From a virus (taxonomy: Duplodnaviria > Caudoviricetes): a stretch of 64,000 nt of DNA. The stretch covers positions 1-64,000 of IMG/VR virus record IMGVR_UViG_3300048572_000043; one strand, written 5' to 3'. The notes under the pieces are model-generated. The model ran no database searches, had not been told where the DNA came from, and was given only the letters and a program-made list of their open reading frames with translations. A program made the translations under genes and the position numbers. Below are positions 4,513 through 53,285 of the stretch, piece by piece (positions within the stretch are counted from its first letter, which is position 1; each line of letters begins with the position of its first letter).

Positions 4513-7095
4513 TCAATTATTTTTATCTGTCTTTTTTAAATCATTTAATTTCATATAAATTTGATGATCTTGAATAGCTATTAAGTCTCCAAATATACAA
4601 TCATCTCTTTTAGAGCCTTTTGCTATAACGATATTTCCCTCTTCAAAAGCTTTGTTATTTAATAATTTATTATTCTCAATATTATCATTAAATATTAGTA
4701 CGCTAATTGAGCTGGTTTCATCTGATATTTTTAGCCTTACATATCTAGTTTTCTTTTCATTTTTAGATACGCCAGTATATACTTCTTCTATTTGACCAAC
4801 AAATGCAACTTTACTATTAACTGGTTCATCTATAATATCACTAACATATTTAAGATTTTCTCTTTTCTCTGCGAAAATGTCTCTTAAATTTTTGTTATAT
4901 GTATATCCCAAAAGTTTCTTTTCATAATACCAGTTTGCAAAACTTTCACTTTTACTATTCTGATTATAGATTTCAAGGTATGGTGCATATTTTGCTTTAA
5001 TAGTATTTAATCTATTATCCTTAATAACCAAATGATTCTTTTCATCAGTAAATTTATTGAGATGTTTTATAATTTTAATCAAATCATAATCAAACTTATC
5101 TGCGAATGAAATTGAATACTTTTTCTCTTTAGCTGTTAAAATATTCCATAATTGAGCTTCTAATACAATTTTACTTCTAGATTGATTAAATCCACTCAAT
5201 GCTCCTGCTTGAATCAAGGATGATAATACTCCAATATTAAGATTAGCTTCTTCTGCTGCTTGCAAAATCTCAAACTTATTAGAATACTTATTTCTAAAAC
5301 TATTTAGTTTTTCAATAGATTTATCACTTATTCCCTTGATAGATAACAAACCAAATCTAATATCTTTATCTTCTATTGAGAAATCCATTTCTGATTTGAT
5401 AATGTGTGGCGGAAGGAGTTTGATATCGAATTCATGCATTTCTTTTTGAATCTTAGAAATTTCGCCAATTGGATCTGGCTCGTTTCTGCTCATTTTCAAT
5501 AAAGATAAGAAGAATTGTTGAGGATGATTGAATTTCAAATAAATTGTAACTGCTGCTAAAGCTGCGTAAGCCAATGAGTGACTTTTATTAAAAGAGTAAT
5601 TCGCGGAGTCTTCAAGAATTTTCCATAGAATTTCTCCTACTTCTTTTGGTATCTCGTTTTCTTTAATCTTTGATTCGATCTTCTTTTTCCAAGCTTTAAT
5701 TTCTTCAGTTTTCTTTTTACCAACTATTCTTCTTAAGATTTCTGCTTCGTCCAAAGTAAATCCAATCTTATTAGCCATCTTCATTAATTGCTCTTGATAT
5801 AAAGCTACTCCACCAGTTTGCTTTAGAATATCATCAAAGAATGGATGAATACTTTCTGATTGTTGATAATTTGTATGAGCAGCATATTTATCTACGAATT
5901 GTAATGCTCCAGGTCTTGCTAAAGCTAAGACTCCGCTGAGTTCTTCAAGATTCTTTGGTTTTACTTTTTGACAAACTCTAAAATTAGTTTCTGCTTCAAT
6001 TTGAAAAAGACCATGAGGAGATTTTAGGTCTTGTAGATTTCTATAAATAGATTCGTGATTTAAGTCAATATCTTCTACTTTAATACCAATATTTTTACAA
6101 ACATCATCTACAACTGAAACGCTTCTTAAACCCAAGATATCAAGTTTAATATTAAATAGACTAACCCAATTCATATCAAAACTTGAAACTGGCTCTTTAT
6201 CAGAAGAGAATTCTGTTGGGCATACTGTTTCTAAATCATAATAAGAAAGAAGAACTCCAGATGGGTGAACTCCTTTATTTTTGATAAGATCTCTTAGCTT
6301 TAGGGCGATTTGAAATGTTTCTTTATTTTCATCACACCAATCTTTAAATTTTTCTACTTCTTCGTATGCAGTATTAATATCTTTAACTTGACCATAAACT
6401 TTTGGAATCAACGATGAAATATTTGTCATTTCTTCTTCCGTCTTTTCTCCAACGATTTTGCCGCATTCCTTGATTAAGAGTTTTCCACTCAAAGTATTAA
6501 GAGTTAAGATTTTACTAGTTTTACCTTTAAATTTAGATTCTAAATACTGTAATACTTTTTGACGATTATAATAACAAATATCCAAATCAACGTCACACAT
6601 CAAACTACCATCAAGATATGTTATGCCGTCAATAACCTGCTTTTTAGCTCGAATCTTGGATATAAATCTTTCGAAATAAAGATCATATTTAACTGGATCA
6701 ATTCTAGTTACACCGATTAGATAAAGAATAAGTGAACCAGCAGCTGAACCTCTACCTAATCCAACTGGTATACTGCTTGTCTTGCAAAAATTAATAACAT
6801 CCCATACTAATAAAATATAATCTATGAATCCTAATTCTTTTAATGTTTCTAGTTCATGTTTTGCTCGGTCAATATATTTCTTATAATCTTTATTATCTTT
6901 TTCTATTTTTAAATCCTTAAAACCATTCAAAGCTAATGCTCTAAGAAAATCATAATTAGAAACATCTTCGCTAATATTAAGATGTCTTTTTAAAGATGCA
7001 TCAATATTGAATTCTGGAAGTCTTACTCCATGTAATCCAAGATCAGTAGTAGTAAATTTACTATATAAAGCTTCGTCTTTTAGGATATTATTCAT
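4513..7095 (-). CDS. dnaE: DNA polymerase III alpha (DnaE) catalytic part lacking the PHP domain
   Basis: GRGSAAGSL, FERF, DVDLD, HPSGV, KLDILGL, YQEQLM and YSFNKSHS motifs; C-terminal OB fold; start taken at MNNILK. Confidence 0.95.
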   Translation of the reverse strand: MNNILKDEALYSKFTTTDLGLHGVRLPEFNIDASLKRHLNISEDVSNYDFLRALALNGFKDLKIEKDNKDYKKYIDRAKHELETLKELGFIDYILLVWDVINFCKTSSIPVGLGRGSAAGSLILYLIGVTRIDPVKYDLYFERFISKIRAKKQVIDGITYLDGSLMCDVDLDICYYNRQKVLQYLESKFKGKTSKILTLNTLSGKLLIKECGKIVGEKTEEEMTNISSLIPKVYGQVKDINTAYEEVEKFKDWCDENKETFQIALKLRDLIKNKGVHPSGVLLSYYDLETVCPTEFSSDKEPVSSFDMNWVSLFNIKLDILGLRSVSVVDDVCKNIGIKVEDIDLNHESIYRNLQDLKSPHGLFQIEAETNFRVCQKVKPKNLEELSGVLALARPGALQFVDKYAAHTNYQQSESIHPFFDDILKQTGGVALYQEQLMKMANKIGFTLDEAEILRRIVGKKKTEEIKAWKKKIESKIKENEIPKEVGEILWKILEDSANYSFNKSHSLAYAALAAVTIYLKFNHPQQFFLSLLKMSRNEPDPIGEISKIQKEMHEFDIKLLPPHIIKSEMDFSIEDKDIRFGLLSIKGISDKSIEKLNSFRNKYSNKFEILQAAEEANLNIGVLSSLIQAGALSGFNQSRSKIVLEAQLWNILTAKEKKYSISFADKFDYDLIKIIKHLNKFTDEKNHLVIKDNRLNTIKAKYAPYLEIYNQNSKSESFANWYYEKKLLGYTYNKNLRDIFAEKRENLKYVSDIIDEPVNSKVAFVGQIEEVYTGVSKNEKKTRYVRLKISDETSSISVLIFNDNIENNKLLNNKAFEEGNIVIAKGSKRDDCIFGDLIAIQDHQIYMKLNDLKKTDKNN

Positions 7096-7306
7096 CGTCT
7101 TCGTCTTCTTTATCAATGTTATCTATTTCTTTATTAAAAGCATCTAATCCAGTTGCTAATATTTTCATAGATGCTTTATCCTTTAAACTAAAGAATACGT
7201 CTGCTTTGCCTTGCTTCTTTCCTTTTTGAACAGTAATAAGTAAATACTCTATTCCACCATCTTCTAGTTTTTGGATTATATCATAAATATCGTCTAGTGA
7301 TGCCAT
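7088..7306 (-). CDS. small acidic hypothetical protein
   Basis: 72-aa ORF coupled between the exonuclease and dnaE. Confidence 0.7.
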   Translation of the reverse strand: MASLDDIYDIIQKLEDGGIEYLLITVQKGKKQGKADVFFSLKDKASMKILATGLDAFNKEIDNIDKEDEDDE

Positions 7307-32032: not shown

Positions 32033-32121
32033 ATAAATATATACACCGTTTTTTAGTTAAATTTATAAAATGTATCATTTTATTCAATATAAAATGGAGC
32101 TAAAGGCAATTCTTTTAGACT

Positions 32122-32509
32122 TGGACCCGAAGAGAATTGAACTCTTGTCTTTTAAAAATCTAAATTAAAATACTACAAGTTTAGTTATTTTTATTTTTAG
32201 CTTTGTATAGATAAACAACAAACATACTCAGCGATTTTATTTTGAGTATTGAATATAAAAAGAATAAAAAAACTATTTATAATCAAACATCTAATTACGC
32301 AATATTCCAATAGATGTGTCATGGATATCACGCTGTAGACTTTAGGCTACAGAAGCGGTCAATTCAACAAGAGAAGCTCTTGCAGAGATATGACCTTTAT
32401 ATTTTGCTGTTTTGGCAGTTAATATAAGTGAAACTTTTTAAGGAGTCCTCGATTCAACCTCCACTTGCATTTTAAGTTATTTTCTTAAAATCGAAACCAG
32501 TACGGGCCC
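32122..32509 (-). ncRNA. ssrA: tmRNA
   Basis: 5' GGGCCCGTACTGGTTTCGA pairs with 3' ...GTTCAATTCTCTTCGGGTCCA (acceptor stem with G3:U, discriminator A, T-loop); TAACT-GCC resume context and tag ORF AKTAKYKGHISARASLVELTASVA*. Confidence 0.93.
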
Positions 32510-32538
32510 AATGTTAAAGAACTAATTAATCTTACACA

Positions 32539-32748
32539 TTATAAAGCTTTTAATAATCTTTGGCAATCTTTTTTATAAACAAAATTAAATTTGATTCTTG
32601 ATCCATTAATATCTGAAATTAATTGAGGCATGGCAATACATGGATATTCACTTGGTTCATCATAAATATTCTCATTAGAGATATTGTAATGCTTTACGCA
32701 TTTATATGAGTAAACTGTCCATCTAGCTTTATTTTTTATAATCTCCAT
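32539..32748 (-). CDS. hypothetical protein
   Basis: 69-aa ORF upstream of the tmRNA. Confidence 0.55.
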   Translation of the reverse strand: MEIIKNKARWTVYSYKCVKHYNISNENIYDEPSEYPCIAMPQLISDINGSRIKFNFVYKKDCQRLLKAL

Positions 32749-32770
32749 TTATATGTATTATAAATAAAAT

Positions 32771-32799
32771 TTGACAAAAGTTTAAAATTAAAATAGTAT
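32771..32799 (+). promoter_or_regulatory. sigma70-type promoter for the ncRNA
   Basis: TTGACA-N17-TAGTAT pointing into an ORF-free structured region. Confidence 0.7.
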
Positions 32800-32807
32800 A
32801 TAAGCAC

Positions 32808-33136
32808 ATAGTTCCCAATTAGAGCAGTTTGTTGATGTCAAAAAATCAACTATCAATCCCTGAGATAGCAATGTCATAAGGGCTGACAACTATTAAAACC
32901 TTCATTTGTACATTGTATGGCTAAAGAAGGAAATGTAGCTATAGGCATCGCAGAATGTAGTGATCGAAGCTACCTCTGATCCATAAGTGCGATGGCCCGT
33001 TCATCACTGAGATCGTGGTGAAATTTGGAGTCAAAAGAAAAGTTGGATTGATAATACTTAACTTCAGATACAACAAATCTGGAGGTAAAGCCCTTTTGGA
33101 TATCAAAGAAAAGTTATAAATAAAGAGAAGAACTAT
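32808..33136 (+). ncRNA. structured ncRNA of unknown family (~330 nt)
   Basis: terminal helix ATAGTTC/GAACTAT, long-range TATCAATCC/GGATTGATA, GCAA tetraloop hairpin, possible pseudoknot, G-U pairs favouring the + strand, own promoter. Confidence 0.7.
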
Positions 33137-33462
33137 TTCTTAATTAAGTGATTCTGTATTATATCAAAATTACGATCTAATTTGGCTTCTATTCTATCAA
33201 AGTAATCATCAAAAGATTCTTTAGTAACATAAGTAGTTGAAATTTTTAAAGCTAAATCTGATATTTCTTGTTGATGCTTTCTGCCCTCTGCTTCCATTTC
33301 TTTTCTTAAAGTTATAAAATCACTAAAAGTTTTATCGTTGATTTCTTTCATAAGATTCTCTTGTTTATCAAAAAGAGAAAATACTCTAGTAAATAACCAT
33401 CCACCTAGAAACGATAATGCTCCCAAAACAACATTAAATAATAATGTAATATCTAAATTCAC
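33133..33462 (-). CDS. small membrane protein with coiled coil (holin-like possible)
   Basis: N-terminal hydrophobic helix LLFNVVLGALSFLGGWLF. Confidence 0.65.
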   Translation of the reverse strand: MNLDITLLFNVVLGALSFLGGWLFTRVFSLFDKQENLMKEINDKTFSDFITLRKEMEAEGRKHQQEISDLALKISTTYVTKESFDDYFDRIEAKLDRNFDIIQNHLIKK

Positions 33463-33470
33463 ATATATAT

Positions 33471-33497
33471 TTACACTATATATTATATAGAGTGTAA
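33471..33497. promoter_or_regulatory. back-to-back pair of GTGTAA motifs (putative divergent phage promoters)
   Basis: TTACAC at 33471 and GTGTAA at 33492, each 8 nt from a start codon. Confidence 0.65.
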
Positions 33498-33505
33498 ATA
33501 ATAGT

Positions 33506-34321
33506 ATGGCATGCGGAAGTAATTCAAAAGCAAATTTTCCTAGTTATTTAAATAGTATTTTAAAAGATATTAATAATGGCAACGATGACGAACTGAAGAG
33601 TTGCGCTTGTTCATTAAAAATTCCTACCACAAACGCAGGATGCTTTATAAGTGACGGCGGTATAAATGGAGCTTTTCCATTTTGCTTAATAAATGGTACT
33701 CCAGCAGAAACAGGTCCAGATACAGATTATCCAATATCATTTAAACTAACTGATTTAATGAAATGGTACTGGACTGGAGATAAATATAAAATAAAAATTA
33801 ATTGGAGCGGCACAGAAAGAGGAGATTGCGGAAGAAATGGAGCACAAACTCAAACAGCAGATTTTGATTTTCAAGAGAGTGATTTTTTAGCAGAAAAAGA
33901 CAAGAAAAAAAGAGTATGCATTCAAAGTGCGACCAATGGTACTGCTAGTTTTAGTGGCAGTATCGTATATTATTGGCCAAGTACAAACCCATGCTGTGGA
34001 GATCCTCCAGAATGTCCAGATCCATATACTGAAACTTTTACATCATCAGTTGAAGTTGGTATAGATTTTGAAAATACATACATAGAAAACAATGGTACAG
34101 TTTGGCCTAAATTTAATTATGGTGGTGAATTTAGTAATGTAAGATGTGGGGATCCAGAACCAAAAGTTGGAGATGCTATGTCAGCTGGAACAAGAGCTAA
34201 ATTCGAAGGAAAATCTTTAGATCCATTATATTTTTGTTGGACTCCAAGTTGGGGCTCAAATGCTGCTTGGGGTTGGAGTGGAAGTATTAATATAACAGTA
34301 GAAATAACTTATTTAAAATAA
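33506..34321 (+). CDS. Cys-rich polymorphic family protein, copy A (most divergent)
   Basis: FPSYLNSILKDINNGNDDELKSCACSL..P....GC.....GAFPFC shared with six other ORFs. Confidence 0.85.
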   Translation: MACGSNSKANFPSYLNSILKDINNGNDDELKSCACSLKIPTTNAGCFISDGGINGAFPFCLINGTPAETGPDTDYPISFKLTDLMKWYWTGDKYKIKINWSGTERGDCGRNGAQTQTADFDFQESDFLAEKDKKKRVCIQSATNGTASFSGSIVYYWPSTNPCCGDPPECPDPYTETFTSSVEVGIDFENTYIENNGTVWPKFNYGGEFSNVRCGDPEPKVGDAMSAGTRAKFEGKSLDPLYFCWTPSWGSNAAWGWSGSINITVEITYLK

Positions 34322-34323
34322 TT

Positions 34324-35316
34324 TTAAATGTCTTCTTTGTTACCAGAAAAAATAATCTCGCAGTACTCTTTAAGTTCGTTAAGGATGTAATCTTTCATAG
34401 AATCAAAATTAATAAAATCAATATAACTTGGTCCTTTTTCATCATCTGTAATAATTTTATATTTATTAATGCTTTCTAAAATATCGCATTTGTTTATAAT
34501 TAATTTATTTGTGCCAGAAATTTTAATCGCTTGTTTTAAATGATTTAACCTCAACCAATTAACTATTCTTTTTCTACCTGTAGTAGAACCAAATTCTTTT
34601 CCAAGATCTATAATTTTATTAAGATCTTTATCTTGCCATAATAATTCTGGAAATAAAGGGTCTACTCCACTTTTAGTATCATAAATTTTTGCTACTCCAA
34701 TAATATTTCTTATCTTTTTAGGACTAAAACCTAAAGAGCAAGCTGAATAAGGAAGAGTTTCGCTACTTGTAACATATGGATAATCTCCATAATTTAAGTC
34801 CAGCCAAAAACTTTGAGCACCTTCACAGAGTATATTTCCATGAAGCTCACCATCCCAAAGATATTGTTTATCTAGATAATCTTTCGCAAGTTTACCAACT
34901 CTTAAAGCTTTGTCAGCATAGCAAGGAGCAATACCTTGACCAGTTGTACCAAGTTTTGGTTTTAAAAATTTAAGATCATACTGAATATGTCTTTCAGTAA
35001 TGATATGAGCTTTTTGGCTTACCTTAATTAATGATGTATCAAATCCTTCTTTTTTAAGATAATCTATTTCATCAAAAAATTTATCAATGTTGATAACGCA
35101 ATTTGGACCGATGATGCTAAGTTTATTTTGGAAAACTCCACAAGGAATAATATGAGTTTTATACTTTTTATCATTAAGATAAACTGTATGACCTGCATTG
35201 GGGCCACCATTCCAACGACAAACAATATCATAATTTTTGCTAATAGCATTACTTATTTTACCTTTTCCTTCATCTCCCCAAGCTAATCCAAAGATAATAT
35301 CTACTGAATTTATCAT
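34324..35316 (-). CDS. purA: adenylosuccinate synthetase (short form)
   Basis: WGDEGKGK, GGPNAGHT, EGAQ..LD..YGDYPYVTSS, GSTTGRKR, NKCD. Confidence 0.93.
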   Translation of the reverse strand: MINSVDIIFGLAWGDEGKGKISNAISKNYDIVCRWNGGPNAGHTVYLNDKKYKTHIIPCGVFQNKLSIIGPNCVINIDKFFDEIDYLKKEGFDTSLIKVSQKAHIITERHIQYDLKFLKPKLGTTGQGIAPCYADKALRVGKLAKDYLDKQYLWDGELHGNILCEGAQSFWLDLNYGDYPYVTSSETLPYSACSLGFSPKKIRNIIGVAKIYDTKSGVDPLFPELLWQDKDLNKIIDLGKEFGSTTGRKRIVNWLRLNHLKQAIKISGTNKLIINKCDILESINKYKIITDDEKGPSYIDFINFDSMKDYILNELKEYCEIIFSGNKEDI

Positions 35317-35370: not shown

Positions 35371-36210
35371 ATGCCATGCGCCCTAACAGAACCAAGCAAT
35401 TATCCAGGCTATCTTAAAACTATTCTTAAAGAGATAGAGGTCGGGAATGATGAAGAATTAAAAGCTTGCGCTTGTTCTTTAAAAAGTCCAGTTACAGATG
35501 AAGGTTGTGTAATAGTTGATGAAGATGGCAAGGTTGGGGCTTTCCCATTTTGTTGCAGTTTAGTGACGGATGGAGTTGGTGATAACACCAGTTATCCATT
35601 AAAATTAACGCTAAAACAAGCTATGTTACTGTATTGGCAAACTATAGATTTTACCCATAACATTATCCCAACAGCCAATTATACAGTATATGGTCAACCA
35701 CCAGGAGAGTGTGGGGCAGCGGGGGGTAGCGGAGTTGATCAAACAGATAGTGATAGTATCTTGATTGCAGATGCAGGTTTTAACATTGTTACAAAAGCTA
35801 AACAAAGAGTGTGTCCATGCCATATATATTTGTTATATGCTTTTCCTGATGCTAGTCCACAAATATTAGGATATTTTTTCTTTGGAAGTGAATTAAAAAT
35901 GAAATATAAAAAAGAAGGAGAGATTTATTATTTTTATCCAAAGTTTGAGATGAGCAGAATTGGAGATTATAATTTTGCTTGGTCTATAAATGAATTCTCT
36001 TCTGGAGACTGTCCATGTGTTTGTTGTTCCCCATATTTAACATATACAGATTTTCAAGTAAAAATAAATGGAATTGAAGCATCTGAAGCACCTATTAAAG
36101 TTTCACTTTGTAATTCAAATGGAAGTTGTGCTGTTTGTAATAATTTAAAATCAGATATTTGGGCAACTTTTAGTACTTTAGAATTTAATACTTCACCTAC
36201 TTTATCTTAA
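35371..36210 (+). CDS. Cys-rich polymorphic family protein, copy B
   Basis: MPCALTEP..YPGYLKTILKEIEVGNDEELKACACSL...GAFPFC. Confidence 0.85.
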   Translation: MPCALTEPSNYPGYLKTILKEIEVGNDEELKACACSLKSPVTDEGCVIVDEDGKVGAFPFCCSLVTDGVGDNTSYPLKLTLKQAMLLYWQTIDFTHNIIPTANYTVYGQPPGECGAAGGSGVDQTDSDSILIADAGFNIVTKAKQRVCPCHIYLLYAFPDASPQILGYFFFGSELKMKYKKEGEIYYFYPKFEMSRIGDYNFAWSINEFSSGDCPCVCCSPYLTYTDFQVKINGIEASEAPIKVSLCNSNGSCAVCNNLKSDIWATFSTLEFNTSPTLS

Positions 36211-46572: not shown

Positions 46573-48834
46573 ATGAATAAGAACACAAACGTTAAAAAAA
46601 GAAATGGCTCTACTGAAAAGTTTAATATAGAAAAAATAAACAAAGTAATCAACTGGGCAATTGATGGTTATAGCGGGGTTAGTTTAACAGATATTGAAAT
46701 TAATGCTAAAATTAATATTCACGATGGAATCAACACGAAGGAGATTCATAACCTATTAATTGAAAGTGCAGCAAATTTGATTTCAATTGAAAAACCAAAC
46801 TATCAATACGTTGCAGCTAGATTATTAAATTATCAACTCAGAAAAGATGTTTGGAAAGGTAAACATGCCCCTAGACTATCAGAGTTTTTAAATCAAAATA
46901 TTAAAAATAAAGTTTATGACTCAAGTATTTTAAATGACTATTCGGAGGATGAGATAAATAAGATTGGAGAATTCATTGACCATGATAGAGACTTTATTTT
47001 TACTTACGCTGGAATCAAACAGCTTTGCGATAAATATTTAATTAAGAATAGAACTACTGGAGAAATTCATGAAACTCCACAATTTGCTTATATATTAATT
47101 GCAGCTTATGCTTTTGCAAAATACCCAGTAGAGACAAGACTTTCATATGTTAGAAAATTTTACGATGCTATTAGTAAACACAAGATCAATCTCCCAACAC
47201 CAGTAATGGCAGGAGTTAGAACATCTAGTAGAAATTATGCTAGTTGTTGTTTAATTGGAGTAGATGATACAAAAGATAGTATTACAGCTAGTGCTACTGC
47301 GGTAAGCATGGCTACTGCTAATAGATGTGGAATTGGAATTGATATAAGTAAAATTAGAGCTATTGGATCTTCTATTAAGAATGGAGAAGTTGTACATACT
47401 GGTTTAATTCCATTTTTAAAAATATATGAAAGTAGCGTAAAAGCATGGCAACAGAATGGATTGAGAGGTGGTAGCGCGACTTGCAATATTCAATGGTGGC
47501 ATTATGAAATCGAAGATATCGTTGTATTAAAAAATAACGCAGGAACAGATGATAATAGAGTTCGTAAACTTGACTATACAGTTGGCATGAGTAAACTATT
47601 CTATGATAGAGTATTAAAAGATGAAGATATCACTCTATTTAACAACGCAGAGGTTCCTGAGCTTTACGAAGCATGGGGAACAAAAGATTTTGATAAAGTA
47701 TATAAAGAATGTGAATCTAAAAAATTAAAATTAAAAAAGAAAATGTCTGCTCGTAAACTATTTTCCCTTATTATCAAAGAGAGAGTTGAAACTGGTAGGA
47801 TTTATATTTTAAATGTAGATCATGCAAATAATCATGGAGCATGGTTAGATAAAGTTACAATGAGCAATCTTTGTACAGAAGTTATTCATCCTACGATTCC
47901 ATTAAATGATTATCACGATAAAGAAGGCGAAATTGGGATGTGTATTCTTTCAGCAGTAAACATGCTAGAAATAAAAAACTGGCAGGATCTTGAAAAGACT
48001 TGCGATCTTATCGTAAGATTTTTAGACGAAATCATTGAGCTTCAAGATTATTTTAATATTGCTGCTGAAAATTTTGCTAAAAAACGTAGAAGCCTTGGAG
48101 TTGGAATTACCAATCTTGCAGCTTTTCTTGCTAAAAATGAATTGAAATATAGTTCCGATAAGTCATTGTCAGTTGTCGATGAATGGATGGAGCATTTTCA
48201 ATATTATTTATTAAAGAGTAGCGTCGAATTAGCTAAAGAAAAGGGCAAATGCGATAAGTTTCATAGAACCAAATATTCAAAAGGTATACTTCCTATTGAT
48301 ACTTACAAAGATAAAGTAGATGAACTAGTCAAAAGAAAATTATCACTTGATTGGGATAAATTAAGAAAAGATATTAAAGAATTTGGTTTGAGACATTCAA
48401 CCTTATCTTCTTGTATGCCTTGTGAGAGCAGTTCTGTAATTCAATGCTCAACAAACGGAGTAGAACCTATTCGTAGTCTTATAACATATAAAACTAGCAA
48501 AATGGGCAAACTTCCAGTTATGGTTCCAGGAATTGGAAAGTATGACGAGAATTATGAATTAGCATATGATTTAAAAGATAACTCTGGAGTACTTAAAATT
48601 AATGCAGTAATCCAAAAATATATTGACATGGCTATATCAACTAATGTATACTACAACTATAGTCATTATGAAAACAATATTCTTCCAGATGCTAAAGTTA
48701 TGAAAGAGCTTATTTACGCTTATAGCCTTGGATTGATTAGTTTGTATTACAATAACACAGATGACGGAGATAAAGAACAATCGCTCAATCAAAAAGAAAA
48801 TGGAGATTGTTCTAGTGGAGCGTGTAAACTATAG
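46573..48834 (+). CDS. nrdA: class Ia ribonucleotide reductase alpha subunit with ATP cone
   Basis: VKKRNG cone, PTPVMAG, ASCCL, SNLCTE, C-terminal CSSGACKL. Confidence 0.97.
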   Translation: MNKNTNVKKRNGSTEKFNIEKINKVINWAIDGYSGVSLTDIEINAKINIHDGINTKEIHNLLIESAANLISIEKPNYQYVAARLLNYQLRKDVWKGKHAPRLSEFLNQNIKNKVYDSSILNDYSEDEINKIGEFIDHDRDFIFTYAGIKQLCDKYLIKNRTTGEIHETPQFAYILIAAYAFAKYPVETRLSYVRKFYDAISKHKINLPTPVMAGVRTSSRNYASCCLIGVDDTKDSITASATAVSMATANRCGIGIDISKIRAIGSSIKNGEVVHTGLIPFLKIYESSVKAWQQNGLRGGSATCNIQWWHYEIEDIVVLKNNAGTDDNRVRKLDYTVGMSKLFYDRVLKDEDITLFNNAEVPELYEAWGTKDFDKVYKECESKKLKLKKKMSARKLFSLIIKERVETGRIYILNVDHANNHGAWLDKVTMSNLCTEVIHPTIPLNDYHDKEGEIGMCILSAVNMLEIKNWQDLEKTCDLIVRFLDEIIELQDYFNIAAENFAKKRRSLGVGITNLAAFLAKNELKYSSDKSLSVVDEWMEHFQYYLLKSSVELAKEKGKCDKFHRTKYSKGILPIDTYKDKVDELVKRKLSLDWDKLRKDIKEFGLRHSTLSSCMPCESSSVIQCSTNGVEPIRSLITYKTSKMGKLPVMVPGIGKYDENYELAYDLKDNSGVLKINAVIQKYIDMAISTNVYYNYSHYENNILPDAKVMKELIYAYSLGLISLYYNNTDDGDKEQSLNQKENGDCSSGACKL

Positions 48835-48837
48835 TCC

Positions 48838-49902
48838 ATGAAAACAGTATTAAATTTTAAAAACATAGATACCACAAAGCAGCCTCTTTTCCTCGGAGAA
48901 GATCTTAATCTTCAAAGATATGATCGATTTAAATATCCAATATTTTTTGAATTATTTAAAAAGCAAAATGAAAATTTTTGGTGGCCTCACGAAATAGCAC
49001 TAGGAAAAGACAGAAGTGATTATAAAAATTTAACTGATACAGAAAGATTTGTATTTGATAGTAATTTGAGATTTCAAACACTTGGAGATAGCATGCTGTC
49101 TAGAAGCATACATTCCCTCAAAGACTACGTCAGTAATCCAGAACTAGAAATATGTATGAATACTTGGGCGCAATTTGAAGGTATTCATAGTTATTCTTAC
49201 TCTTATCTCTTAAATAATGTATATCCAGATCCAACCAAATTCTTTGATAGTATTATGGAAGATAAAGAAATAACAAGTCGCGCTCAATTGATTAGAGATA
49301 ATTTTGATAAAATTCTTGGTGATGATGAAAAGAAAGATCCTAAACAAAAGATTTTTGATGCTATTCTTTCTATTAACGTAATGGAAGGGCTTGTATTTTA
49401 TGTTTCATTCGCTTGTTCTTTTTACTTTGGATATAGAGGAAAGATGGAAGGCAACTCTAAGATTATTAAATTCATTCAAAGAGATGAAGCTCTGCATTTT
49501 GCGGTTAGTCAAAACTTACTTAAAATATTAAGAGACGAAGATAAAGAGGGCTTTACAAGTATAGTAAAGAAAAGCGAAGATAAGATTTATGCTTTTTATG
49601 AACAAGCTGCTAAAAATGAAAGCGAGTGGTCCAAATATCTATTTAGTAAAGGTAGTTTGCTTGGTTTAAATGCGGAAGTGTTAGATGGTTATTCTAAATG
49701 GTTATGCGATTCTAGATTAAGAAGCCTTGGCTATAAGAAGATATTTAATCAAAAGGACAATCCTATCGGTGGATGGCATGATAGCTATTTAGATAGTAGC
49801 AAAGTACAAGTTGCACCTCAAGAAACAGAAATTTCAAGTTACAAAGTTGGAGCAAGAAAAACAGATATATCAGATGATGATTTTGGTGATTTGAAACTAT
49901 AA
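48838..49902 (+). CDS. nrdB: ribonucleotide reductase beta subunit
   Basis: FWWPHE, EGIHSYSY, EGLVFY.SF, RDEALH, APQETEISSY. Confidence 0.97.
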   Translation: MKTVLNFKNIDTTKQPLFLGEDLNLQRYDRFKYPIFFELFKKQNENFWWPHEIALGKDRSDYKNLTDTERFVFDSNLRFQTLGDSMLSRSIHSLKDYVSNPELEICMNTWAQFEGIHSYSYSYLLNNVYPDPTKFFDSIMEDKEITSRAQLIRDNFDKILGDDEKKDPKQKIFDAILSINVMEGLVFYVSFACSFYFGYRGKMEGNSKIIKFIQRDEALHFAVSQNLLKILRDEDKEGFTSIVKKSEDKIYAFYEQAAKNESEWSKYLFSKGSLLGLNAEVLDGYSKWLCDSRLRSLGYKKIFNQKDNPIGGWHDSYLDSSKVQVAPQETEISSYKVGARKTDISDDDFGDLKL

Positions 49903-53198: not shown

Positions 53199-53285
53199 GG
53201 AACGATGGCTGAGTGGTCTAAAGCAGAAGTTTACTAAACTTCCGATGGTTAACTCCATCCGTAGGTTCGAATCCTACTCGTTCCG
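53199..53285 (+). tRNA. tRNA-Ser with ACU anticodon
   Basis: GGAACGA/TCGTTCC acceptor, discriminator G, anticodon stem GAAGT/ACTTC with loop TTACTAA, long variable arm GATGG/CCATC. Confidence 0.9.

What the first reader, a model, noticed from the sequence alone, without database searches (positions are those of the whole stretch)
32808..33136. Unclassified ~330-nt highly structured ncRNA with its own promoter, divergent from tmRNA
Seen: an ORF-free region, visibly richer in GC than its flanks, downstream of TTGACA-N17-TAGTAT. Proposed helices: ATAGTTC(32808)/GAACTAT(33130) closing the molecule, GTTGAT/ATCAAC, TATCAATCC(32851)/GGATTGATA(33045), a CCCT..GATA-GCAA-TGTC..AGGG GNRA hairpin, CATCGCA/TGCGATG, CATCAC/GTGGTG and CTTCAGAT/ATCTGGAG. 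There is also a possible H-type pseudoknot, CCTTC(32899)/GAAGG(32926) crossing TATGGCTA(32916)/TAGCTATA(32936). The wobble pairs read G-U on the + strand, matching the promoter direction. It lacks the RNase P P4 strands, the SRP helix 8 motif and tRNA features. Inference: a possibly novel phage large ncRNA or ribozyme.
Basis: partly seen in the sequence, partly recalled or inferred. Interest (0 to 1): 0.78.

Follow-up and report, generated by a model that had tools for sequence, protein, structure and literature searches.

The report
New pseudoknotted phage RNA, twin motifs
This is a real, previously undescribed ~310-base folded RNA gene of uncultured large lake-water phages, and it carries two always-identical short single-stranded elements whose purpose is unknown.

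Summary
The finding is real. Window 32806-33118 (+) is a single-copy, independently transcribed ~313-nt RNA gene with a conserved TTGACA-N17-TAnnAT promoter. I collected 62 distinct homologues in four subfamilies, all from IMG/VR freshwater phage contigs. Covariation supports nine helices and two firm pseudoknots, plus a third that is tentative. In subfamilies 1+2, 97.7% of cells are paired, against 31-48% in slid controls; in subfamily 4, 93% against 32-46%. No Rfam 15 family matches at E<=10 (window) or E<=1 (8 other loci). No cultured phage matched, and the two exact bacterial-genome pattern scans gave no true hit. Lake metatranscriptome contigs cover the gene but not its upstream flank.

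The closing helix, the GNRA hairpin and the proposed pseudoknot do not.

The new observation is a 12-13-nt purine-rich element that occurs twice. The two copies share an identical block of at least 10 nt in 62 of 62 sequences, although the core has seven variants across lineages.

Function is unknown. My best guess is a trans-acting bivalent adaptor or decoy RNA. A role as nrdA leader, as reverse-transcriptase template or as RNase P is contradicted by the evidence.

The parts
32771..32799 (+). sigma-70-type promoter: TTGACA, 17-nt spacer, TAGTAT
   Evidence: Found by the consensus scan. The -35 and -10 elements are conserved across subfamilies.
32806..33118 (+). The RNA gene: conserved extent about 313 nt, with the 5' end inferred about 7 nt after the -10 element
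   Evidence: Limits of conservation in alignments A1-A3. The covariance-model (CM) match covers 32801-33120. Metatranscriptome contigs start at 32817-32861.
32811..32825 (+). P1 hairpin GUUC/GAGC with a conserved 7-nt loop CCAAUUA
   Evidence: All 4 pairs are standard in every sequence, and 2 show changes on both sides. In subfamily 4 the hairpin is CCGC/GCGG.
32831..32850 (+). P2 hairpin (GUUGA/UCAAC). Its loop UGUC (32836-32839) is the 5' strand of the tentative pseudoknot PK2
   Evidence: Subfamily 4 has CUCC in the loop, pairing with GGAG in the tail.
32851..32859 (+). P3 5' strand (UAUCAAUCC), pairing with 33045-33053
   Evidence: 6 of 9 pairs show changes on both sides. RNAalifold missed this helix.
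32872..32888 (+). S1 (UGUC 32872-75 with GACA 32885-88) enclosing the S2 5' strand AAGGGCU (32878-84). Together these form an H-type pseudoknot with 33089-33095
   Evidence: S1 column 80/97 is U-A in 22 sequences and C-G in 18, with no exceptions. In S2, 3 of 7 pairs are compensatory. S2 is GAAGACU/AGUCUUC in subfamily 3 and CGGAGCU/AGCUCCG in subfamily 4.
32899..32930 (+). P5 hairpin CCUUC/GAAGG with a 22-nt loop
   Evidence: 3 of 5 pairs are compensatory.
32935..32939 (+). PK3 5' strand GUAGC, pairing with GCUAC (32969-32973) in the P7 loop
   Evidence: 98.5% of cells are paired. Variants are GUAGG/CCUAC, GUGGC/GCCAC and GUAGG/UCUAC.
32944..32997 (+). P6 (GGCAUCGCA/UGCGAUG-GCC) enclosing P7 (GAUCG 32962-66 with UGAUC 32977-81)
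   Evidence: P6 is 99.7% paired, with 3 compensatory pairs. P7 is 100% paired, with 4 of 5 pairs compensatory.
33001..33021 (+). P8 hairpin UCAUCAC/GUGGUGA
   Evidence: 6 of 7 pairs are compensatory. In subfamilies 3 and 4 the hairpin is capped by a GNRA tetraloop.
33031..33043 (+). Twin motif, copy 1: UCAAAAGAAAAGU. It is single-stranded and lies just 5' of the P3 3' strand
   Evidence: It shares a block of at least 10 identical nt with copy 2 in 62 of 62 distinct sequences. The core has 7 variants.
33045..33053 (+). P3 3' strand GGAUUGAUA
33061..33086 (+). P9 hairpin ACUUC-AGAU / AUCU-G-GAGGU
   Evidence: The register is fixed by L024 (CCUC/GAGG) and L017.
33089..33095 (+). S2 3' strand AGCCCUU (pseudoknot PK1)
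33099..33102 (+). PK2 3' strand GAUA (tentative)
   Evidence: 96.9% paired but nearly invariant in A2. Subfamily 4 has the fully different CUCC/GGAG, but only 77% of cells are paired there.
33103..33114 (+). Twin motif, copy 2: UCAAAGAAAAGU, at the 3' end of the conserved RNA
32121..32509 (-). Neighbouring tmRNA gene. It is divergent and is not part of the RNA
   Evidence: Rfam 103.9 bits and ARAGORN. It is adjacent in 36 of 62 loci, all from subfamilies 1 and 3.

Best explanation
Window 32806-33118 (+) encodes a new family of stand-alone structured RNA, found once per genome in an uncultured lineage of large (about 130-170 kb) freshwater phages. These phages carry RIIA, UvsX-like, DnaE-like polymerase, PurZ-like and tmRNA genes.

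Shown:
- The RNA has its own conserved sigma-70 promoter.
- It folds into a compact core of nine helices tied together by at least two pseudoknots. S2 (AAGGGCU/AGCCCUU) is a long-range pseudoknot. PK3 joins the J5/6 junction (between P5 and P6) to the P7 loop. A third pseudoknot, between the P2 loop and the 3' tail, is tentative.
- The core leaves a 12-13-nt purine-rich element, YC-A(A)-N9-10, single-stranded in two places. One copy sits before the P3 3' strand and the other at the 3' end.
- The two copies share an identical block of at least 10 nt within every genome, while the sequence differs between lineages.

Inferred:
- The RNA acts in trans, not as a leader for a fixed downstream gene.
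- The folded core is a scaffold. It presents the two identical elements as paired specificity sites for two copies, or two identical sites, of one partner. That partner could be a nucleic acid read by base pairing or a dimeric protein. The RNA would then work as a bivalent adaptor or decoy during infection.
- The partner is not identified.
For: Homologues:
- nhmmer, exact-pattern and CM searches gave 62 distinct sequences in four subfamilies.

Structure:
- On A2 (40 sequences), 97.7% of cells are paired, against 31-48% when the partners are slid. 32 of 69 pairs show changes on both sides, against 6-10 in the slid controls, and 0 of 500 shuffles reach this.
- The same architecture holds independently on subfamily 4 (12 sequences): 93.0% against 32-46%, and 23 of 60 pairs against 4-10.
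- The strand is fixed by the G-U pairs and by the conserved promoter.

Gene status:
- One copy in each of the 5 genomes searched, one of them rated 100% complete.
- In 4 of 4 lake metatranscriptome runs, contigs cover 32817-33476. They do not cover 32540-32795, nor the stretch from 33500 to the end of what was laid (33800).

The RNA is a separate module:
- Upstream genes differ between subfamilies.
- The downstream gene is nrdA on the same strand, a convergent 110-aa gene, or a 271-aa-family gene.
- The window's own nrdAB is 13 kb away.

Twin motif:
- A shared block of at least 10 nt is found in 62 of 62 sequences.
- There are 7 core variants: AAAGAAAAGU, AUUGGGAAGU, ACUGGGAAGU, AUUGGAAAGU, AUUGGGAAAU, AUUGGGAAGA and AGGGAAAAAGU.
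- The preceding C/U also changes in both copies together.
- No complementary partner is found inside the RNA consistently across subfamilies.
Against: - The partner is unknown, and nothing here shows binding.
- No complement of the motif is enriched in the phage genomes. In G000 the 10-mer occurs at 6 sites on both strands, 2 of which are the motif copies themselves. For the subfamily-4 8-mer, 4 of 5 records matched, and only 0-2 sites per record lay outside the two copies.
- A protein site would not obviously require letter-for-letter identity of the two copies.
- Contig depth over the RNA is modest (about 15-32), against thousands over the tmRNA stretch. Contigs show neither strand nor transcript ends.
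- No terminator follows the RNA, so its 3' end is undefined.
- Identity of the two copies could instead reflect a DNA-level function or shared processing sites.
- PK2 is weak in subfamily 4 (77% of cells paired).
Confidence: 0.4

Rival explanations
1. Processing or catalytic RNA. The two identical elements are the two reaction sites. They could be self-cleavage or ligation sites, or sites for one sequence-specific endonuclease. Either route would give a two-piece RNA held together by P3, S2 and PK2, or would release the ~72-nt segment between the copies.
For: The fold is compact and multi-pseudoknotted, with GNRA-capped helices, as is typical of ribozymes. Identical sequences at two sites are what a single recognition module would need. 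No terminator defines the 3' end, and copy 2 sits exactly at the end of conservation.
Against: No known ribozyme model matches. Metatranscriptome contigs run uninterrupted across copy 1 (table 8), although contigs cannot show cleavage. No nuclease partner gene is conserved beside the RNA.
Confidence: 0.2
2. DNA-level element. The locus is a replication origin or regulatory region in which an untranslated early transcript primes or opens the DNA. The two 12-13-bp direct repeats would be iterons for one DNA-binding protein. This would resemble T4 oriE with its primer RNA and iterons, which I recall and did not look up.
For: A strong early-type promoter drives a non-coding transcript. Two direct repeats 71-72 bp apart evolve in concert. 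The phage has UvsX-like and DnaB-like replication and recombination genes. Purine-rich RNA favours stable RNA-DNA hybrids (general knowledge).
Against: Thirty-two pairs with compensatory changes and two or three pseudoknots show selection on an RNA fold well beyond what a primer needs. There are only two repeats. No Rep-like gene is conserved next to the locus.
Confidence: 0.1
3. Cis-acting leader (riboswitch-like or antiterminator) for the ribonucleotide reductase operon nrdA-nrdB.
For: In subfamilies 2 and 4 the RNA lies 120-190 nt upstream of nrdA on the same strand. This was seen in 18 of the 80 nrdA loci scanned. In subfamilies 1 and 3 it still borders the nrdA-nrdB-110aa block.
Against: In the window the downstream gene is convergent, and nrdAB lies at 46573-49899. 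In subfamilies 1 and 3 the block is inverted. nrdA keeps its own conserved upstream elements (GTACAC, TGTTAAYAA, T-rich tract, TGTAAYAT) whether or not the RNA precedes it. No riboswitch model matches.
Confidence: 0.07
4. A very divergent or rearranged member of a known housekeeping RNA, for example an RNase P-like RNA. The S2 strands GAGG(U/G)AAAG(C/U)C and GGCUGAC recall the CR-I and CR-V strands of P4. That resemblance is from memory.
For: There is sequence resemblance of the S2 3' strand, strongest in subfamily 3 (GAGGGAAAGUCUUC). The phage encodes tRNAs and a tmRNA that need processing.
Against: No RNase P model, nor any other Rfam model, matches at E<=10 or at E<=1 in 8 further loci. The two strands are in the reverse order. 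GAGG is base-paired in P9. Nothing like an S-domain, P15 or P2 topology is present. I could not test a permuted sequence.
Confidence: 0.03
5. Template RNA for a reverse transcriptase (DRT2- or UG27-like), with the two identical elements acting as template-jump sites.
For: Identical short sequences flank a ~72-nt segment in a ~300-nt structured ncRNA. This recalls the DRT2 ncRNA as mentioned in passages of bioRxiv 10.64898/2026.09.22.753630.
Against: No RVT_1 domain was found in G000 (0 of 1). None was found in 4 larger genomes that carry the RNA, one of them rated complete (0 of 4; a fifth was not held).
Confidence: 0.02

Closest known systems
Large structured bacterial and phage ncRNAs of unknown or recently emerging function (GOLLD, ROOL, OLE, raiA, HEARO)
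   Same: A stand-alone gene hundreds of nucleotides long, with many covarying helices and pseudoknots. It is linked to phages and lies near tRNA/tmRNA genes, and was found by comparative analysis of environmental sequence.
   Different: No sequence or structure match to any of their Rfam models. It is shorter (about 313 nt). It has its own twice-repeated specificity element. It is known only from one freshwater phage lineage.
Bacterial RNase P RNA (P4 helix, CR-I/CR-V)
   Same: A long-range helix whose strands read GAGG-AAAG-YC... and ...GGCU..., preceded by a hairpin (recalled resemblance).
   Different: The strand order is reversed, GAGG is paired, there is no S-domain, and no CM hit. Membership was tested and not met.
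Eukaryotic/archaeal H/ACA guide RNAs (hairpin-H box-hairpin-ACA) and multi-seed sRNAs such as RoxS/RsaE
   Same: The architecture is analogous only: two hairpin-plus-single-strand modules carry related or identical short elements that recruit two copies of one partner or target the same kind of site (recalled).
   Different: No homology. The core is far more complex, the organism is different, and the motif varies between lineages.
DRT2 / UG27 reverse-transcriptase template ncRNAs
   Same: A structured ncRNA of a few hundred nucleotides with short repeated sequence motifs, in phage-related loci.
   Different: No reverse transcriptase is found in the phage genomes. The RNA is not arranged as an array.
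T4 origin transcripts (oriE RNA with iterons)
   Same: An untranslated early transcript with short direct repeats in a large phage that has UvsX-type recombination (recalled).
   Different: The strong RNA-fold covariation here is not known for origin primers. There are only two repeats.

Membership tests
Any Rfam 15 family (4227 models, including RNase P A/B/archaeal/T, SRP, 6S, tmRNA, group I/II introns, GOLLD, ROOL, OLE, HEARO, raiA, cobalamin and other riboswitches) | Covariance-model score at or above the family's gathering threshold | tested here: not met
   Whole window at gathering threshold: only the tmRNA and 2 tRNAs. Region 32500-33500 at E<=10: no match inside 32806-33118. Eight loci of subfamilies 2-4 at E<=1: only the tmRNAs.
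Bacterial RNase P RNA | P4 formed by the CR-I strand (5' part) and the CR-V strand (3' part), with GAGGAAAG unpaired | tested here: not met
   The look-alike strands are in the opposite order (32878-84 and 33089-95), and GAGG is the 3' strand of P9.
Bacterial RNase P RNA | Pre-tRNA 5' processing activity | not testable with these tools
   This needs an in vitro cleavage assay.
tmRNA | tRNA-like domain formed by the 5' and 3' ends, plus a tag reading frame | tested here: not met
   ARAGORN and Rfam find only the neighbouring gene at 32121-32509. The RNA has no acceptor or T-arm.
Group I intron | Inserted in a host gene with flanking exons | tested here: not met
   The RNA has its own conserved promoter directly upstream. 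The flanking ORFs are on the other strand. There is no Intron_gpI hit.
Riboswitch / cis-regulatory leader | Consistently located in the 5' UTR of the regulated gene, on the same strand | tested here: not met
   This holds in subfamilies 2 and 4 (nrdA). It does not hold in the window or in subfamilies 1 and 3, where the downstream gene is convergent.
RT-template ncRNA (retron, DRT2, UG27) | A reverse transcriptase gene in the same locus or genome | tested here: not met
   PF00078: 0 of 1 and 0 of 4 genomes (one record was not held).
Type III toxin-antitoxin RNA (ToxI-like) | Tandem array of short repeats next to an endoribonuclease toxin gene | not tested
   Only two motif copies, 71 nt apart, are seen. 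The neighbours had no Pfam or PHROG nuclease hit. PADLOC was not run.
New family proposed here | P1-P9 core with the S1/S2 pseudoknot and PK3, plus two motif copies sharing an identical >=10-nt block (YC-A(A)-N9-10) | tested here: met
   Window copy: 384.5 bits to model R1. Motif identity holds in 62 of 62 sequences.

The most novel reading that the evidence does not exclude
This is a new class of large phage-encoded functional RNA: a ribozyme, or the RNA core of an RNP. Two identical guide-like single strands, which can be reprogrammed between lineages, direct it to two copies of a host or phage nucleic-acid target. That would make it a bivalent RNA-guided effector or decoy used during takeover of abundant freshwater bacteria.
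Probability: 0.2. Interest if true: 0.9.

Novelty: categorically new. Interest (0 to 1): 0.72.

Why it matters
Complex-folded RNAs longer than about 300 nt that match no known class are rare. They have repeatedly led to new biochemistry, as with ribozymes, OLE, the HEARO/IscB omega-RNA, and the ROOL and GOLLD assemblies.

This RNA has firm comparative support, is expressed in lakes, and belongs to a widespread uncultured phage lineage: more than 60 distinct contigs from many lake metagenomes. It also offers an unusually clear experimental handle, namely two single-stranded elements that are kept letter-for-letter identical while drifting between lineages. That pattern points to a specific recognition event that can be searched for and reprogrammed. 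The RNA is small enough for chemical probing and cryo-EM.

Tried and rejected
- **Thermodynamic folding** gave only z about -2 on both strands, so it was not used as evidence.
- **RNAalifold** on A2 missed P3 and P2 and proposed conflicting pairs. I replaced it with a manual model and then tested that model.
- **A brute-force scan of column pairs** was swamped by the two-clade phylogeny.
- **The search for related loci** with the 455-aa and 271-aa neighbour proteins found no relatives.
- **blastn against GenBank phages** gave no match for the window RNA or for a subfamily-4 RNA.
- **Pattern GGCTGACNACNATTAAAA** brought in 16 new loci. Seven held real copies and 9 were chance matches.
- **Bacterial and archaeal genomes.** Pattern 1 gave 0 hits. 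Pattern 2 gave 1 hit, inside a 1070-aa ORF of a MAG contig, which model R1 does not match and which I judged to be chance.
- **An intramolecular partner for the twin motif** was not found consistently across subfamilies. The P1 loop CCCAAUU complements the subfamily-4 motif only, and it does not covary with it.
- **Complement of the motif in the phage genomes:** none is enriched.
- **A conserved neighbouring protein gene:** none is shared by all four subfamilies.
- **A coding reading** of the 34-aa ORF at 33015-33119 was rejected. The frame is not conserved (L017 stops early), and the two motif copies fall in different frames.
- **Metatranscriptome depths and stretches without cover** are contig-based and cannot rank expression.
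- **Literature:**
  - Fremin et al. 2023 (PMC10690425; passages read). Their IMG/VR candidates are 29-151 nt long. Their supplementary lists could not be seen, so pieces of this RNA may be among them.
  - Two 2026 genome-language-model preprints (passages read) describe other RNAs.
  - The Melnitz methylophage paper (PMC9004378; passages read) concerns a two-piece tmRNA plus a glutamine riboswitch, not this RNA.

Full report
**1. What is at the coordinates**

The window is the first 64 kb of a 101,856-bp IMG/VR virus record rated 64% complete. Between a 69-aa ORF (32539-32748, minus strand) and a 109-aa ORF (33133-33462, minus strand) lies a stretch with only 33-, 55- and 34-aa ORFs. Its GC content is 0.35-0.44, against 0.17-0.27 on either side.

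A promoter-like site, TTGACA(32771)-N17-TAGTAT(32799), sits on the + strand. A tmRNA gene lies divergently at 32121-32509. Rfam 15 finds nothing in the region, either at gathering thresholds over the whole window or at E<=10 over 32500-33500.

Single-sequence folding is not informative. The z-score is -1.9 for the + strand and -2.0 for the - strand.

**2. Homologues**

The RNA has no blastn match among 50,697 GenBank phage records. Its relatives came from IMG/VR, in these steps:
- Starting from the neighbouring PurZ-like gene, I fetched 80 related loci. Seven of them held a homologue within the 8-kb flanks fetched.
- An exact pattern built from two invariant blocks found 48 loci. Together these gave 53 full-length copies, of which 40 were distinct.
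- A second pattern added 7 real copies and 9 chance hits.
- A covariance model (R1) found one distant copy among the 82 loci that had no hit so far.
- R1 matched 5 of 38 whole records: a third subfamily plus that same distant copy.
- R1 gave 44 matches in 80 loci centred on nrdA. These included 12 new members of a fourth, GC-richer subfamily.

In all I compared 62 distinct sequences. They fall into four subfamilies:
- subfamily 1: the window and 36 others;
- subfamily 2: the L017 type, 5 sequences;
- subfamily 3: the L146 type, 7 sequences;
- subfamily 4: the L038/L151 type, 13 sequences.

The gene is present once in each of 5 genomes searched whole, one of which is rated complete. Two exact-pattern scans of 185,579 species-representative bacterial and archaeal genomes gave no true hit. 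That shows only that near-identical copies are absent.

**3. Structure**

RNAalifold gave a partly wrong model, missing P2 and P3. I built a model by eye from the alignments and then tested it.

On A2 (subfamilies 1+2, 40 sequences):
- 97.7% of 2745 cells form standard pairs, against 31-48% when the 3' partners are slid by 1-3 columns.
- 32 of 69 pairs show changes on both sides, against 6-10 in the slid controls. No shuffle in 500 reaches the observed values.

On A4 (subfamily 4 aligned on its own, 12 sequences), the same architecture gives 93.0% against 32-46%, and 23 of 60 pairs against 4-10.

The elements, in window coordinates, are:
- P1: 32811-14 with 32822-25, loop CCAAUUA
- P2: 32831-35 with 32846-50
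- P3: 32851-59 with 33045-53
- S1: 32872-75 with 32885-88
- S2: 32878-84 with 33089-95, an H-type pseudoknot whose long third loop holds most of the molecule
- P5: 32899-903 with 32926-30
- P6: 32944-52 with 32988-97
- P7: 32962-66 with 32977-81
- PK3: 32935-39 with the P7 loop at 32969-73
- P8: 33001-07 with 33015-21
- P9: 33061-69 with 33077-86

Evidence for the individual pseudoknots:
- **S2** changes as AAGGGCU/AGCCCUU, GAAGGCU/AGCCUUC, AUAGGCU/AGCCUAU, GAAGACU/AGUCUUC and CGGAGCU/AGCUCCG.
- **S1** rests on a perfect U-A (22 sequences) versus C-G (18 sequences) switch, and on CGC/GCG in subfamilies 3 and 4.
- **PK3** changes as GUAGC/GCUAC, GUAGG/CCUAC, GUGGC/GCCAC and GUAGG/UCUAC.
- **PK2**, a third pseudoknot between the P2 loop UGUC (32836-39) and GAUA (33099-102), is tentative. 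It is nearly invariant in A2. It is fully different (CUCC/GGAG) in several subfamily-4 members, but only 77% of cells are paired there.

P8 carries GNRA tetraloops in subfamilies 3 and 4. Many G-U pairs would be A-C on the other strand. Together with the conserved promoter, this fixes the + strand.

**4.

Five hold: P2, P3, P5, P6 and P8. P9 holds with a one-base register shift and a bulge.

Three do not hold:
- The closing helix ATAGTTC/GAACTAT reaches beyond the conserved 3' end. It exists as a run of 7 bp or more in 4 of 60 sequences.
- The GATA-GCAA-TGTC hairpin has 13 of 40 broken inner pairs.
- The TATGGCTA/TAGCTATA arm has no compensatory change and breaks in all five subfamily-2 sequences.

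In both of the last two cases the bases take part in better-supported pairings (S1/S2 and PK3).

**5. The twin motif**

A purine-rich element occurs twice and is unpaired in the model. One copy lies just before the P3 3' strand (33031-43, UCAAAAGAAAAGU). The other lies at the end of the conserved RNA (33103-14, UCAAAGAAAAGU).

In each of the 62 distinct sequences the two copies share an identical block of at least 10 nt. Across the family that block takes seven forms: AAAGAAAAGU, AUUGGGAAGU, ACUGGGAAGU, AUUGGAAAGU, AUUGGGAAAU, AUUGGGAAGA and AGGGAAAAAGU.

The C/U that precedes the block also switches in both copies together. This is seen in L024, L126, L093 and subfamily 3. One difference persists everywhere: copy 1 has one more A than copy 2. 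The flanks also differ. Broad gene conversion is therefore an unlikely cause, and selection for identity is the simpler reading.

I found no complementary strand inside the RNA that holds across subfamilies. I also found no enriched complement in the phage genomes.

**6. Context**

The phage encodes RIIA, a UvsX-like recombinase, a DnaB-like helicase, a DnaE-like polymerase (32% identity or less to any cultured phage), a PurZ-like adenylosuccinate synthetase, a tmRNA and tRNAs.
- In subfamilies 1 and 3 a tmRNA gene lies 107-297 nt upstream on the other strand, in 36 of 62 loci. In subfamily 2 it is 6.5-10 kb away.
- In subfamilies 2 and 4 the RNA sits 120-190 nt upstream of nrdA-nrdB (identified by Pfam) on the same strand.
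- In subfamilies 1 and 3 the nrdA-nrdB-110aa block is inverted, so the RNA converges on the 110-aa gene.
- In the window only the 109-aa gene remains next to the RNA. nrdAB is at 46573-49899.
- nrdA keeps the same upstream sequence elements with or without the RNA.
- Upstream neighbours differ between subfamilies.

The RNA gene is therefore a self-contained module.

**7. Expression**

Coded lake-water metatranscriptome runs hold parts of the sequence. I laid the contigs of four of them at 85% likeness.
- The contigs cover 32817-33476.
- They do not cover 32540-32795.
- They do not cover the stretch from 33500 to 33800, the end of what was laid.
- The tmRNA stretch is covered at far higher depth.

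The onset of cover near the predicted start fits the promoter. However, contigs show neither strand nor transcript ends, and the cover continues over the convergent 109-aa gene.

**8. What it is and how it may work**

Shown: this is a new, single-copy, expressed, multi-pseudoknotted RNA gene of one uncultured phage lineage, with two identical single-stranded elements.

Inferred, with about 0.4 confidence for the mechanism: it acts in trans, and the core is a scaffold that presents the two elements to two copies of one partner.

Rivals, in order:
- a processing or catalytic RNA with the motifs as its two reaction sites (0.2);
- a DNA-level origin or iteron element (0.1);
- an nrdAB leader (0.07);
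- a rearranged known RNA such as RNase P (0.03);
- a reverse-transcriptase template (0.02; no RVT_1 domain in 0 of 1 and 0 of 4 genomes).

**9. Novelty**

No Rfam model matches. I found no description in the papers I searched with two term sets, reading passages only.

Noticed in passing
window 34324-35316 (-): A 330-aa adenylosuccinate-synthetase homologue. It matches PHROG 1211 ('2-aminooxy adenylosuccinate synthetase', the PurZ type) at 6.7e-65 and Pfam Adenylsucc_synt. It is shorter than the 416-position profile. The phage lineage may make 2-aminoadenine (Z) DNA. 96 related viral loci were found.
   Followed up: partly
window 32121-32509 (-): A one-piece phage tmRNA (103.9 bits). ARAGORN reads an unusually long 24-residue tag, AKTAKYKGHISARASLVELTASVA. 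In four lake metatranscriptomes the contig depth over this stretch is in the thousands.
   Followed up: partly
window 53199-53285 (+): A tRNA-Ser with anticodon ACT as read by ARAGORN, which has an unmodified-looking A at the wobble position, and a long variable arm.
   Followed up: no
window 33506-34321 (+) and 35371-36210 (+): Two paralogous Cys-rich proteins of 271 and 279 aa flank the PurZ-like gene. They have no Pfam or PHROG match. Paralogues of this family follow the RNA on the same strand in L055 and L125.
   Followed up: partly
window 33133-33462 (-), and homologues in L017, L092, L084, L100, L101, L055, L097: A 109-112-aa protein with an N-terminal hydrophobic helix and a coiled-coil-like remainder. 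It always closes the nrdA-nrdB block, and it stays next to the RNA in the window even though nrdAB is 13 kb away.
   Followed up: partly
upstream 200 nt of nrdA in L151-L230 (e.g. L189:2301-2500); nrdA of the window starts at 46573: A conserved set of short elements precedes nrdA in nearly all relatives, independent of the RNA: GTACAC, TGTTAAYAA, a T-rich TTTTTCTTT tract, and TGTAAYAT. It may be a promoter or operator.
   Followed up: no
window 33444-33499: An AT-rich inverted repeat between the divergent 109-aa and 271-aa genes. It gave weak chance-level hits to a CRISPR repeat model on both strands and overlaps a promoter-like site.
   Followed up: no
L038 13609-14244 (-): A 211-aa ORF without a Pfam match is inserted between nrdA and nrdB in this relative.
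   Followed up: no
window 4513-7116 (-): The replicative polymerase is DnaE-like (Pol III alpha type), with at most 32% identity to any cultured phage record. The lineage has no close isolate.
   Followed up: partly
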